From Escherichia coli (GTDB lineage Bacteria > Pseudomonadota > Gammaproteobacteria > Enterobacterales > Enterobacteriaceae), in assembly GCF_001677475.2 (NCBI RefSeq), contig NZ_CP015229.1: 64,000 nt of DNA. The stretch is one strand, 5' to 3'. Shown piece after piece: positions 35,501 through 38,500 of the stretch; position 1 is the first letter of the stretch, and every line of letters starts with the position of its first letter. Made by a program: the position numbers.

Positions 35501-38500
35501 AAGTCTGCGCTTTGCTACCCGCCTGCGGGATGGAATTGGCGACTGTAACCGGGTTGCCCTGGAAATGAACGGTTTGTGACATGATTATCTTTCCTGTTTA
35601 CATATAGTTAACGTCACACCTAGTTTATGCTAACTGTCAATAACACAGCAAACGCTATTTGCGCTTAATCCGCAGACAACCGCGACAACAAGGAGTAAAG
35701 ATGAGAACCGTTAAGGTTTTTGAGGAAGCCTGGCCCTTACATACCCCGTTTGTGATTGCTCGGGGAAGTCGCAGTGAAGCGCGCGTGGTGGTGGTTGAAC
35801 TGGAAGAAGAAGGTATTAAAGGCACCGGTGAATGCACGCCGTATCCGCGTTATGGAGAAAGTGATGCCTCGGTAATGGCGCAAATTATGAGCGTCGTGCC
35901 GCAATTAGAGAAAGGGCTGACACGGGAGGAGTTGCAAAAAATTCTCCCTGCCGGCGCAGCACGTAATGCGCTGGATTGTGCATTATGGGATCTGGCGGCG
36001 CGAAAACAGCAGCAATCGCTGGCTGATTTGATCGGCATAACGCTTCCCGAGACAGTCACCACTGCCCAGACGGTAGTCATCGGTACGCCTGATCAGATGG
36101 CCAATAGTGCATCAACACTCTGGCAGGCAGGCGCGAAATTACTGAAAGTAAAGCTGGATAACCATCTTATCAGTGAGCGGATGGTGGCAATTCGCACAGC
36201 TGTGCCCGATGCGACGCTGATCGTTGATGCAAATGAATCCTGGCGTGCAGAAGGGTTGGCGGCGCGTTGCCAGCTATTGGCGGATTTAGGCGTTGCGATG
36301 CTTGAACAACCGCTTCCTGCGCAGGACGATGCGGCGTTGGAGAATTTTATTCATCCGTTACCGATTTGTGCAGATGAAAGTTGTCATACTCGTAGCAATC
36401 TGAAGGCGCTGAAAGGGCGCTATGAGATGGTTAACATTAAGCTCGATAAAACGGGTGGCCTGACGGAAGCGCTGGCGCTGGCGACTGAAGCACGTGCACA
36501 AGGTTTTAGTCTGATGCTGGGCTGCATGTTGTGTACCTCTCGTGCCATTAGCGCCGCTTTACCGCTGGTGCCGCAGGTCAGTTTCGCCGATCTTGACGGA
36601 CCGACCTGGCTGGCGGTAGATGTGGAACCGGCGCTTCAGTTCACAACGGGCGAATTGCATCTTTAGGATGCCAGCGCAGCAAGTTTGCCATCGCAAAGAG
36701 ATATTTTTCGCTGGCTTCGTCGGAGGAGATGGGCGGAAACTCTGCGGTGATGCAATGCAGGTTGAGATCCGCACACCAACTACCGAAAGAGCCAGGTGTT
36801 TCATAACCGACGCTGGTTACCAGAGGCAATTCAAACGCCTGGGCCAGCCATTCGCCTAATTCGCTGTGTCTGGGATCTTCAATACAGGCCAGCGGATCGT
36901 GGAATGAGACCACCCAGGCAGGTTGAATGCGGTGTATAAGCTGGCACAGCGCCTGGGTTTCAGGTTCGGAGCCAGGTTTGTCACCTGTCAGCAATACGAC
37001 ATCACGTTCTTCAGCGGCGCTGTTCCAGCGATAAACGGTTTCACTTTCCTTCCAGTTCGCCGCCGGAAAGTTTCTGTTTAAATCCACACCATTAGCATTG
37101 GCCCGTAACCCCAACTGGCAGCCGTCAGGATTCACACACAGCACCACATGATGACGGCGCAAAGAAGGTGTCAACGTCCGCAGAGCACAGGAGAGCGTGA
37201 CGATCGAAGAGTTTTCATCACCGTGAGTGCCAGCCAGAATCAAACCACTTTCGCGGCTGGCTGCAGGGGCAGGAAACCAGATTAACGGCGCGCCCAATAA
37301 TGAACGTCCGTAATGTTCTGTTCCGGGCGGAAATGCGCCGCGTTCGGCGCGTGGGCGAGTTACGGTCATGATCGTCTCTGGTTCAGGAAGTATTACAGGC
37401 AGTGTTGTGCAAATTTTGCGGATTATCAAATCCTTTTCTTCAACGCTATGTTATCGATCTTGTATCACTTTTTTGATGGAAGTTGTTTGCATTTTCATTG
37501 ATGTGCAGATATTAGAATTGTCGTAATGTTATATACATGGCGTATTTTATTCTTACTGGTTCTACACATGTTAATCGCATCTGATTGATCAGTTCACCTT
37601 AATAAGTTTAATAAATCGTACTGCACATAGTACAGTACGATGGTAGCTATATAATTGATTTACATGAAGAATGGCTTATCGCCATCAGTCCCGGGTTGAT
37701 TGATTCCTATATTCTCACCAATGTGTTTCTCAGGTTTATCGATGATATCTGTAATTAATGCTGCGACACTCTTACGTGATACGATCGTACCTTTGAATGG
37801 TTCATTGCGTGAGGTAAGCTCATAATCAATAATATCTTCATCAGTCAGCCAGGCAGGGCGAAGAATTGTATATTCCAGTCCAGAAGCCTCAATTGCATCC
37901 GCAGCCCTGCGGAATGGTTTTAGGGGTTCACCAATAACTGCATTATTCCATTCGCCAAATTTTCCTGGAACTTCATCATAAATACCGAGGGAAAGAACAA
38001 AGATCAGACGTTTAACATCACAGGCTTTCATCGCAGCGATCACTGAATTTGCCTGAATATCTAAATCTTCCCCCGTAAGGTTGGCATACACAACATCCTG
38101 TCCCTGCATGGCCTGCTTCAGTGCTGCATGATTCAGTACATCCCCCATAATAATCTTGCTATTAGTGGGATAGGGTTTGTGGATTTTTGCTGGCTGACGG
38201 GCAAATAAAGTTTGTTTAATGGTTTGTTTATCTGCCAGTTGATTAATCACATGGCGGGCTATCTGACCGCCAGCACCAAGAATCAGTACATTTTTCATGA
38301 AGCTTTTCCCAGATTATTGGCAGCAATATGCCAGGCCATATCACTATTACGGATTTGAATATGTTTCATTACAGAGTTTCCTCAAAGAACGGAGCTAATA
38401 CTGAAATTGATTCAGCCACATAGACTTTGCCGTCATAAAGATCCATATGGTTTGCGCCTTCAACAATGTGATAGCGTTTATCCTGGCTTGATGCTCGATC

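What the first reader, a model, noticed from the sequence alone, without database searches (positions are those of the whole stretch)
37660..38369. Intact ymjC and a coupled 24-codon micro-ORF in the ycjY operon
ymjC, which I recall as a pseudogene in K-12, is a full 212-aa NAD(P)-binding protein here. Between ycjY and ymjC a 24-codon ORF is linked by overlapping stop/start codons on both sides (TAATG and ATGA), implying an intact coupled operon ycjY / micro-ORF / ymjC, with mpaA downstream after a hairpin.
Basis: partly seen in the sequence, partly recalled or inferred. Interest (0 to 1): 0.4.

Follow-up and report, generated by a model that had tools for sequence, protein, structure and literature searches.

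The report
Deletion scar ORF beside intact ymjC
The 24-codon "micro-ORF" is the leftover start and end of a second hydrolase gene that most E. coli have lost; it is already annotated in K-12 as ymjD, and the intact ymjC next to it is the common, structurally solved form, so the finding is real but ordinary.

Summary
On the minus strand, ycjY (38369..39289), a 24-codon ORF (38295..38369) and a 212-aa ymjC (37660..38298) are joined by TAATG and ATGA overlaps. A 12-bp hairpin (37615..37641) follows ymjC, then mpaA.

ymjC is intact here. K-12 lacks window 37496..38160 (665 bp), which leaves 46 native codons. About 53% of 5,426 complete E. coli genomes keep full-length ymjC, and the protein is 209/212 identical to PDB 3QVO.

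The micro-ORF is not a new gene. It is the ortholog of the annotated K-12 gene ymjD (21 aa). It is an in-frame deletion remnant of a second alpha/beta-hydrolase gene, which I call "H2" (310 aa). It keeps H2's first 18 codons, a hybrid codon and H2's last two codons.

H2 sits between ycjY and ymjC in 1,283 E. coli genomes. It is full-size in eight loci sampled from five other enterobacterial genera, always with the same TAATG overlap. The ATGA overlap is secondary: a 12-nt spacer was lost and H2's TAA stop became AAA.

So the operon is not intact. It is the middle stage of stepwise decay from ycjY-H2-ymjC, to ycjY-scar-ymjC, to the K-12 state. Whether the scar still relays ribosomes to the weak ymjC start is inferred, not shown. 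Low novelty.

The parts
38369..39289 (-). ycjY, alpha/beta hydrolase 1 (306 aa from the RefSeq-type start; the open frame runs up to 39301)
   Evidence: ORF list. RefSeq annotation of orthologous loci. The ATG at 39289 has a GAGGAA Shine-Dalgarno (SD, ribosome-binding) site with anti-SD pairing energy -6.9, whereas the ATG at 39301 has none. K-12 YcjY is PDB 5XB6.
38295..38369 (-). 24-codon micro-ORF, the ortholog of K-12 ymjD (b4673) and an in-frame deletion remnant of hydrolase gene H2. 38316..38369 is H2 codons 1-18. 38313..38315 is the hybrid junction codon. 38307..38312 is H2's last two codons (LG). 38304..38306 is H2's former TAA stop, now AAA. 38295..38303 is the read-through into the ATGA overlap.
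   Evidence: 20 of the 21 K-12 YmjD residues are identical. The junction GCCAAT-A|AT-CTGGGA is the same in all 16 sequences examined that lack H2.
38299..38311 (-). The 13 nt that stand in place of 892 nt of E. coli W (894 nt in O157:H7) carrying H2 codons 19-310 and the H2-ymjC spacer
   Evidence: BLAST of the window against L002 and L004. Sequence comparison.
37660..38298 (-). ymjC, full-length NmrA-like atypical SDR (212 aa)
   Evidence: Pfam PF13460 NAD_binding_10, E 3.4e-54 over 8-189. 209/212 identical to PDB 3QVO 'NmrA family protein'. Same 212-aa length as the Klebsiella and Serratia orthologs.
37496..38160 (.). Segment missing from K-12 MG1655 (665 bp): ymjC codons 47-212, its stop, the hairpin and 164 nt of the ymjC-mpaA spacer
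   Evidence: K-12-type hits cover 68% of the 2,071-nt query.
37615..37641 (-). Hairpin after ymjC (12-bp stem, 3-nt loop, interrupted U-rich tail); possible weak intrinsic terminator
   Evidence: dG -17.7, z -3.2. Not called by the consensus terminator scan. No Rfam match.
36641..37369 (-). mpaA, murein tripeptide amidase: downstream neighbour, not part of the mobile cassette
39427..40326 (+). pgrR (ycjZ), divergent LysR-type regulator of the cassette
   Evidence: The same LysR gene lies divergent to H1-H2-SDR in Klebsiella and Serratia.
39290..39426 (.). ycjY/pgrR divergent control region with the conserved palindrome ATCATTTAAATGAT and repeated GGTCTAATCA
   Evidence: Three-genus alignment. 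The pgrR promoter-like TAGACC-18-TATCAT matches the promoter listed in PMC3946193.

Best explanation
The locus is a horizontally shared four-gene cassette: a LysR regulator (pgrR) divergent from hydrolase 1 (ycjY), hydrolase 2 (H2) and an NmrA-like SDR (ymjC). It is caught here at the middle stage of decay.

Shown:
- In the ancestral arrangement the ycjY stop overlaps the H2 start (TAATG), and H2 ends 15-18 nt before ymjC.
- In the lineage of this window an in-frame 867-nt deletion removed H2 from inside codon 19 to inside codon 308.
- A 12-nt loss between the repeats ATGAGAAAT and ATGAAAAAT shortened the H2-ymjC spacer to 5 nt.
- H2's native TAA became AAA, so the remnant now reads three codons further and ends in a TGA that overlaps the ymjC ATG.
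- K-12-type strains keep the TAA (21-aa ymjD) and have a further 665-bp deletion that destroys ymjC and its hairpin.

Inferred:
- The remnant keeps H2's good Shine-Dalgarno (SD) site (GAGGA) and its start coupled to ycjY, while ymjC has only a weak one (GGGA).
- Ribosomes that finish ycjY probably re-initiate on the remnant, translate 24 codons, terminate on the ymjC start and re-initiate there.
- On this view the scar is a passive translational relay. The peptide itself, the N-terminal strand of a hydrolase, most likely has no function.
For: K-12 annotation and alignment:
- ymjD 21 aa and ymjC 60 aa lie at the same positions as here.

H2 in E. coli:
- O157:H7 and E. coli W carry a second hydrolase gene between ycjY and the SDR.
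- Its first 18 codons (MKHIQIRNSDMAWHIAAN) and its last codons (CTG GGA TAA) match the micro-ORF base for base.
- An intact 310-aa H2 exists in E. coli (P0001, cluster of 1,490 sequences).
- H2 is only 42% identical to YcjY, so it is an old paralog, not a recent duplication.

Other genera:
- Klebsiella variicola, Serratia marcescens (two loci), S. grimesii, Pseudocitrobacter, Shimwellia and two Citrobacter species all have H1-TAATG-H2.
- H2 is 306-311 aa in seven of the eight loci. The eighth (L016) runs off the end of the stored sequence after 119 codons.

Population counts in 5,426 complete E. coli genomes:
- H2 is present in 1,283.
- The H2-deletion junction is present in 3,949.
- Full-length ymjC is present in about 2,901.

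Allele sampling:
- All 9 E. coli sequences that lack H2 and keep the full-length ymjC region have the 24-codon AAA allele.
- All 7 K-12-type sequences have the 21-codon TAA allele.

Anti-SD pairing energy:
- Micro-ORF -6.2 kcal/mol. About 9% of random 20-mers do as well.
- ymjC -4.2. About 22% of random 20-mers do as well.
- The ymjC start is also weak in E. coli W, an H2-carrying strain (-2.7), and in Klebsiella (+0.4).
Against: - Nothing here measures translation, so the relay step is inference from geometry and SD strength.
- The mRNA around the ymjC start is not significantly structured (z = -1.05), so there is no sign that upstream translation is needed to open it.
- The link between the 24-codon allele and intact ymjC is not absolute. 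Escherichia sp. E1V33 has the 24-codon allele together with the K-12-type ymjC deletion. The link may be simple haplotype linkage with recombination rather than selection.
- My statement that K-12 ymjD was detected as an expressed peptide and described as a deletion remnant (Hemm et al. 2008; EcoGene) rests on memory. Those sources were not available.
Confidence: 0.87

Rival explanations
1. The remnant is a neutral scar with no part in ymjC expression. ymjC initiates on its own weak SD site, and any translation of the 24 codons is incidental.
For: - ymjC has a GGGA motif 8 nt upstream.
- There is no significant occluding structure.
- The remnant shows non-synonymous variation (A12D in K-12, A16T in ETEC1748, V23A here) and length variation of 21 versus 24 codons.
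- E1V33 combines the 24-codon allele with a dead ymjC.
Against: - The ymjC SD site is no better than about 22% of random 20-mers. In E. coli W, an H2-carrying strain, and in Klebsiella it is weaker still, which suggests ymjC has always relied on ribosomes arriving from the upstream gene.
- The remnant ORF is open in all 16 sequences examined, although diversity is too low for that to prove selection.
Confidence: 0.35
2. The micro-ORF encodes a small protein with a function of its own, such as a regulatory peptide, that has been kept by selection.
For: - It has a good SD site and a start coupled to ycjY.
- The ORF is retained in every sampled genome that lacks H2.
- K-12 annotates it as the protein YmjD. 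From memory, it was detected with an epitope tag in K-12.
Against: - Its sequence is simply H2 residues 1-18 plus junk.
- In eight loci from five other genera these residues are the N-terminus of a full-size hydrolase, never a free ORF.
- The C-terminus differs between alleles (LG, LGKVS, LGKAS).
- It has no hydrophobic segment or recognisable motif.
- It persists equally in strains that have lost ymjC.
Confidence: 0.05
3. The short ORF is ancestral, and H2 was inserted into it in some E. coli lineages.
For: H2-carrying genomes are the minority in E. coli (24%).
Against: - An insertion would have to land inside a 21-codon ORF and recreate a complete hydrolase in frame, with both ends supplied by the host ORF.
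- All eight loci outside Escherichia have the H2 gene with the same TAATG overlap.
- H2 is 80-87% identical across orders.
Confidence: 0.02

Closest known systems
ymjD (b4673) of E. coli K-12 MG1655, annotated 21-aa protein between ycjY and ymjC
   Same: - Same position, and the same ATG overlapping the ycjY stop.
- Same deletion junction.
- 20 of 21 residues identical.
- Listed in the operon ycjY-ymjDC(-mpaA) under PgrR.
   Different: - Here H2's TAA stop is AAA, so the ORF runs 24 codons and ends in an ATGA overlap with ymjC. In K-12 it ends 5 nt before the ymjC start.
- The window allele also has V23A, which has an exact 71-nt match in only one of 5,426 genomes.
Full-length YmjC: RefSeq 'SDR family oxidoreductase' WP_000800177.1 and PDB 3QVO 'NmrA family protein'
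   Same: 212 aa, 209/212 identical to 3QVO, PF13460 fold, N-terminal GAGGQIA dinucleotide-binding motif.
   Different: Three substitutions only. K-12 ymjC (b4525) is the truncated derivative, with 46 native codons.
The LysR / hydrolase 1 / hydrolase 2 / NmrA-like SDR cassette of Klebsiella variicola, Serratia, Citrobacter, Pseudocitrobacter and Shimwellia, and of about 24% of E. coli (O157:H7, W)
   Same: - Same gene order.
- Same TAATG overlap between the two hydrolases.
- Same 212-aa SDR.
- Conserved control region.
   Different: Here hydrolase 2 is reduced to 21 of its 310 codons, and 12 nt of the spacer before the SDR are gone.
Termination-reinitiation coupling at overlapping stop/start codons in bacterial operons (the classic example, from general knowledge, is trpB-trpA UGAUG)
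   Same: A 1-nt (TAATG) and a 4-nt (ATGA) stop/start overlap on one transcript, with a weak downstream SD site.
   Different: Two couplings occur in series through a 24-codon spacer ORF that is a gene remnant. Coupling was not measured here.

Membership tests
ymjD (b4673) ortholog | Start codon overlaps the ycjY stop, and the ORF lies between ycjY and ymjC | tested here: met
   identical TAATG context and the same 71-nt start-to-start distance to ymjC.
ymjD (b4673) ortholog | Sequence identity to K-12 YmjD | tested here: met
   20 of 21 residues identical (A12 versus D12). Three nucleotide differences create the 3-codon extension.
ymjD (b4673) ortholog | Peptide actually produced | not testable with these tools
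   Only my memory of epitope-tag detection in K-12 (Hemm et al. 2008). The paper and ribosome-profiling supplements are not held.
Deletion remnant (pseudogene scar) of hydrolase H2 | Both ends align to the two ends of a full-length gene found at the same site in relatives | tested here: met
   Codons 1-18 match the H2 N-terminus. CTG GGA plus the stop position match H2's last codons. 892-894 nt are replaced by 13 nt.
Deletion remnant (pseudogene scar) of hydrolase H2 | The full-length gene is the outgroup state | tested here: met
   Eight loci from five other genera have H1-TAATG-H2. H2 is 306-311 aa in seven of them, and one locus is cut by the end of the stored sequence.
NmrA-like atypical SDR (PF13460 / PF05368) | Full-length Rossmann domain with the N-terminal glycine-rich motif | tested here: met
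   PF13460 E 3.4e-54 covering 8-189. PF05368 E 4e-10. Motif GAGGQIA at residues 7-13. 209/212 identical to PDB 3QVO.
NmrA-like atypical SDR (PF13460 / PF05368) | Known substrate or activity | not testable with these tools
   No NCBIfam equivalog. The nearest characterised structures, ChuY/ShuY and biliverdin-IX-beta/flavin reductase, match only at E about 1e-5 to 1e-6.
Translationally coupled gene pair (termination-reinitiation) | Overlapping or abutting stop and start codons on one transcript | tested here: met
   TAATG and ATGA. The scan placed no promoter-like or terminator-like site in the ycjY/micro-ORF/ymjC junction region; its only minus-strand promoter-like hit within ycjY..ymjC lies inside the ymjC coding sequence at 37865..37892.
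Translationally coupled gene pair (termination-reinitiation) | Downstream expression depends on upstream translation | not testable with these tools
   Only indirect evidence: the weak ymjC SD site. The structure test was non-significant.
Independent functional small-protein gene | Conserved as a free-standing ORF beyond close relatives | tested here: not met
   Outside Escherichia the residues are the N-terminus of H2. Within Escherichia the C-terminus and length vary.

The most novel reading that the evidence does not exclude
The scar has been put to use as a translational bridge. After the deletions removed H2 and the spacer before ymjC, the TAA-to-AAA stop loss was selected because it moves termination onto the ymjC start codon (ATGA) and restores ribosome hand-off from ycjY to ymjC. 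That would explain why all 9 sampled E. coli that lack H2 and keep the full-length ymjC region carry the 24-codon allele, while all 7 sampled K-12-type strains, which have lost ymjC, carry the 21-codon allele.
Probability: 0.15. Interest if true: 0.35.

Novelty: already known. Interest (0 to 1): 0.13.

Why it matters
It matters little beyond annotation hygiene. The case shows that a neat "coupled micro-ORF" can be the two ends of a deleted gene. It also shows that K-12 is the most decayed of three common states of this locus in 5,426 complete E. coli genomes:
- about 24% carry ycjY-H2-ymjC;
- about 30% carry ycjY-scar-ymjC;
- about 43% carry ycjY-scar-ymjC remnant.

This is useful when interpreting pan-genome hits on "ymjC", the K-12 operon model ycjY-ymjDC-mpaA (which exists only because the K-12 deletion removed the hairpin), and small-protein catalogues that list YmjD. 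If the relay idea held, it would be a tidy natural example of a gene remnant kept as a translational coupler.

Tried and rejected
- Rfam scan of 36500..39600 at E up to 1 gave no match, so no known RNA element explains the region.
- The consensus terminator scan did not call the ymjC hairpin. It is kept only as a possible weak terminator, on folding evidence.
- Folding of the ycjY/micro-ORF/ymjC junction RNA gave z = -1.05, not different from shuffles, so I dropped the idea that micro-ORF translation is needed to unmask the ymjC start.
- The hairpin core TACTGTACTATGTGCAGTA looks like a LexA box, but the CTG...CAG spacing is 9 rather than 10 nt. I rejected it by reading the sequence.
- Literature on translation of YmjD was not obtainable. 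Hemm 2008 and 2010 are not held, two ribosome-profiling papers have no held supplements, and full-text searches for ymjD, b4673 and "fusion remnant" gave nothing beyond operon listings.
- The genome contigs pattern scan returned only 6 loci and missed the E. coli representative itself. It serves as a sample of outgroups, not a census.
- I considered a strict link between the 24-codon allele and intact ymjC. It was weakened by Escherichia sp. E1V33.
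Full report
**What is in the sequence.** Three ORFs abut on the minus strand:
- ycjY, with an open frame at 38369..39301. The RefSeq-type 306-aa start is at 39289 and has a GAGGAA Shine-Dalgarno (SD) site.
- A 24-codon ORF at 38295..38369, MKHIQIRNSDMAWHIAANNLGKAS.
- ymjC at 37660..38298, 212 aa.

The ycjY TAA shares an A with the micro-ORF ATG (TAATG). The micro-ORF TGA overlaps the ymjC ATG (ATGA). After ymjC there is a 12-bp hairpin at 37615..37641, with dG -17.7 kcal/mol and z = -3.2. It has an interrupted U-rich tail, so the simple terminator scan does not call it. mpaA follows at 36641..37369, and pgrR is divergent at 39427..40326. No Rfam family matches the region.

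**The K-12 lesion.**
- MG1655 annotates ymjC (b4525, 60 aa) and ymjD (b4673, 21 aa) between mpaA and ycjY.
- Alignment shows that K-12 lacks window 37496..38160, a stretch of 665 bp with at most a few bases of junction homology.
- The deletion leaves 46 native ymjC codons fused to 14 foreign ones. It also removes the ymjC stop, the hairpin and 164 nt of the ymjC-mpaA spacer.
- Intact ymjC is not rare. Of 5,426 complete E. coli genomes, 2,901 cover at least 80% of a 2,071-nt query across the locus, and most of the rest show the K-12-type 68% coverage.
- The protein is an NmrA-like atypical SDR: PF13460, E 3.4e-54. It is 209/212 identical to the solved structure 3QVO.

**What the micro-ORF is.** It is the ortholog of K-12 ymjD, with the same start, the same context and 20 of 21 residues identical.

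It is also a scar. O157:H7 and E. coli W carry a second alpha/beta-hydrolase gene between ycjY and the SDR. I call this gene H2.
- H2 starts at the same TAATG, and its first 18 codons are MKHIQIRNSDMAWHIAAN.
- H2 ends ...CAT CTG GGA TAA, followed by GTTTCATGAGAAATATT and then the ymjC ATG.
- The window reads GCC AAT A|AT CTG GGA AAA GCT TCA TGA.
- So H2 has been removed from the second base of codon 19 to the first base of codon 308. That is 867 nt, in frame.
- In addition, 12 nt (ATGAGAAATATT) between the near-repeats ATGAGAAAT and ATGAAAAAT are missing from the spacer.
- In total, 892 nt of strain W (894 nt in O157:H7) are replaced by 13 nt of the window, 38299..38311.
- K-12-type alleles keep H2's own TAA, hence 21 aa. 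In the window type that TAA is AAA, so the frame reads on to the TGA that overlaps the ymjC ATG.

The TAATG coupling is therefore inherited from the ycjY/H2 junction. The ATGA coupling is a by-product of two later small changes.

**Direction of change.**
- H2 is a real, old gene. An intact 310-aa form exists in E. coli (P0001, a cluster of 1,490 sequences).
- It is 84-87% identical in Serratia and Klebsiella and about 80% identical even in alphaproteobacteria.
- It is only 42% identical to YcjY, so it is not a recent duplication.
- The arrangement LysR | H1 -TAATG- H2 occurs in Klebsiella variicola, Serratia marcescens (two loci), S. grimesii, Pseudocitrobacter, Shimwellia and two Citrobacter species. 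H2 is 306-311 aa in seven of these eight loci. The Citrobacter locus L016 ends after 119 codons because the stored sequence ends there.
- A 212-216-aa SDR gene follows H2 in the K. variicola, S. marcescens and Pseudocitrobacter loci. In Citrobacter L017 the spacer and the start of that gene closely match the Pseudocitrobacter ones, but my ORF search did not report a long ORF there.
- The divergent control region is conserved across three genera.
- Only the Escherichia locus in that scan (sp. E1V33) has the short ORF.

Deletion in Escherichia is thus the only reasonable reading.

**Population picture in 5,426 complete E. coli genomes.**

| State | Genomes | Source |
|---|---|---|
| H2 present | 1,283 (about 24%) | |
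| H2-deletion junction present | 3,949 (about 73%) | |
| Window type (H2 lost, ymjC full length) | about 1,630 (about 30%) | 2,901 full-length ymjC loci minus about 1,272 H2 carriers |
| K-12 type | about 2,320 (about 43%) | remainder of the junction carriers |
| Other | about 190 | remainder |

In the 16 sequences read directly (15 E. coli plus E1V33):
- The remnant ORF is open in every one.
- All 9 E. coli with the full-length ymjC region have the 24-codon allele. It usually ends ...GKVS. The window's ...GKAS has an exact 71-nt match in only one genome.
- All 7 K-12-type sequences have the 21-codon allele.
- E1V33 combines the 24-codon allele with the K-12-type ymjC junction. The association is therefore not absolute, and recombination between haplotypes is likely.

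The locus carries many other independent lesions:
- an H2 frameshift in O157:H7;
- an H2 W13 stop in strain W;
- H2::SDR fusion deletions in strain R1 and in P0002;
- IS1 insertions in ETEC1748 and HCP30S3_I2;
- a one-base insertion at the ymjC start in strain MEW;
- internal stops in pgrR (ETEC1748) and in ycjY (OkiPb01714).

The cassette is decaying in E. coli.

**How it most likely works.** The identity and history above are shown. The following is inferred.

| Start codon | Anti-SD pairing energy (kcal/mol) | Note |
|---|---|---|
| Micro-ORF | -6.2 | H2's GAGGA site; about 9% of random 20-mers do as well |
| ymjC, window | -4.2 | GGGA; about 22% of random 20-mers do as well |
| ymjC, E. 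coli W (carries H2) | -2.7 | |
| ymjC, Klebsiella | +0.4 | |

All values are. ymjC thus seems always to have depended on ribosomes delivered by the upstream gene. In the window type the scar can still deliver them: termination at the ycjY stop, re-initiation at the overlapping ATG, 24 codons of translation, termination on the ymjC start, then re-initiation. I found no significant RNA structure that would make this obligatory (z = -1.05), and nothing here measures translation. The 24-residue product is the N-terminal strand of a hydrolase plus three to five junction residues. It varies between alleles and is unlikely to have a function of its own.

**Comparison with what is known.**
- K-12 ymjD and ymjC are annotated.
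- The operon is written ycjY-ymjDC or ycjY-ymjDC-mpaA under PgrR (PMC3946193, PMC5934670).
- Structures exist for YcjY (5XB6) and for full-length YmjC (3QVO).
- From memory, not verifiable here, EcoGene described ymjD as an expressed deletion-pseudogene fusion remnant, and Hemm et al. 2008 detected the tagged peptide.
- This analysis adds the explicit three-stage reconstruction, the population frequencies, and the observation that the ATGA overlap of the window type comes from a stop-codon loss.

**Verdict.** Novelty: already known. Interest is low (0.13). The most novel reading still open is that the stop loss was selected to make the scar a better translational bridge to ymjC. I give that about 15%.

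Noticed in passing
window 39290..39426; L006 3942..4080; L007 3943..4080: The ycjY/pgrR divergent control region is strongly conserved between this window, Klebsiella variicola and Serratia marcescens. It includes a perfect palindrome ATCATTTAAATGAT and two copies of GGTCTAATCA. This looks like the operator of the cassette's own LysR regulator. It suggests that PgrR's primary target is the hydrolase/SDR operon rather than the peptidoglycan-recycling genes it happens to sit among in E. coli.
   Followed up: partly
L006, L007, L008 versus window 36641..40326: The LysR/H1/H2/SDR cassette has different neighbours in each genus. In K. variicola a resolvase gene lies on one side, and a classical SDR and an OYE-type flavin oxidoreductase on the other. 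In Serratia it lies between DUF4432 and sugar-transporter genes and a branched-chain ABC transporter. In E. coli it lies between mpaA and mppA. It behaves as a mobile module inserted between two murein-tripeptide genes.
   Followed up: partly
P0059-P0120: H2 orthologs in alphaproteobacteria (Afipia, Mesorhizobium, Agrobacterium, Brevundimonas, Sphingobium) are 77-82% identical to the E. coli protein over the full length. That is unusually high for such distant taxa and points to strong constraint or recent horizontal spread.
   Followed up: no
L002, L004, L005, L010, L019, L025, L026: The locus carries many independent lesions in E. coli:
- an H2 frameshift in O157:H7;
- an H2 W13 stop in strain W;
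- an H2::SDR fusion deletion in strain R1, and a 489-aa fusion protein, P0002;
- IS1 at the ymjC 3' end in ETEC1748, and IS1 between the scar and the ymjC remnant in HCP30S3_I2;
- an extra A in the run of A's at the ymjC start in strain MEW;
- internal stops in pgrR (ETEC1748) and in ycjY (OkiPb01714).
   Followed up: partly
window 28000..48000: No complete E. coli genome among 5,426 is more than 98.7% identical to this 20-kb stretch. The best local match is 99.2% over 5 kb, to CFSAN061763. The window therefore comes from a lineage not closely represented in that collection, possibly Shigella or a rarely sampled Escherichia lineage.
   Followed up: no
window 37615..37641: The hairpin core, read on the minus strand as TACTGTACTATGTGCAGTA, resembles a LexA SOS box (TACTG-N10-CAGTA) but has 9 rather than 10 bases between the CTG and CAG arms. 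It is probably just a hairpin.
   Followed up: no
window about 40424..40498 (equivalent to L002 5456..5530 and L005 5214..5288): RefSeq annotates a 75-nt 'epoxyqueuosine reductase QueH' internal fragment between pgrR and mppA in O157:H7 and strain R1. I did not check whether the window carries it or what it really is.
   Followed up: no
window 39286..39301: The ycjY start is ambiguous. The first ATG (39301, 310 aa) has no SD site, whereas the annotated-type ATG (39289, 306 aa) has GAGGAA. A tetracycline ribosome-profiling study reports that the main ycjY initiation signal in K-12 lies at a site different from both the 2006 and 2014 annotations (PMC4909307).
   Followed up: no
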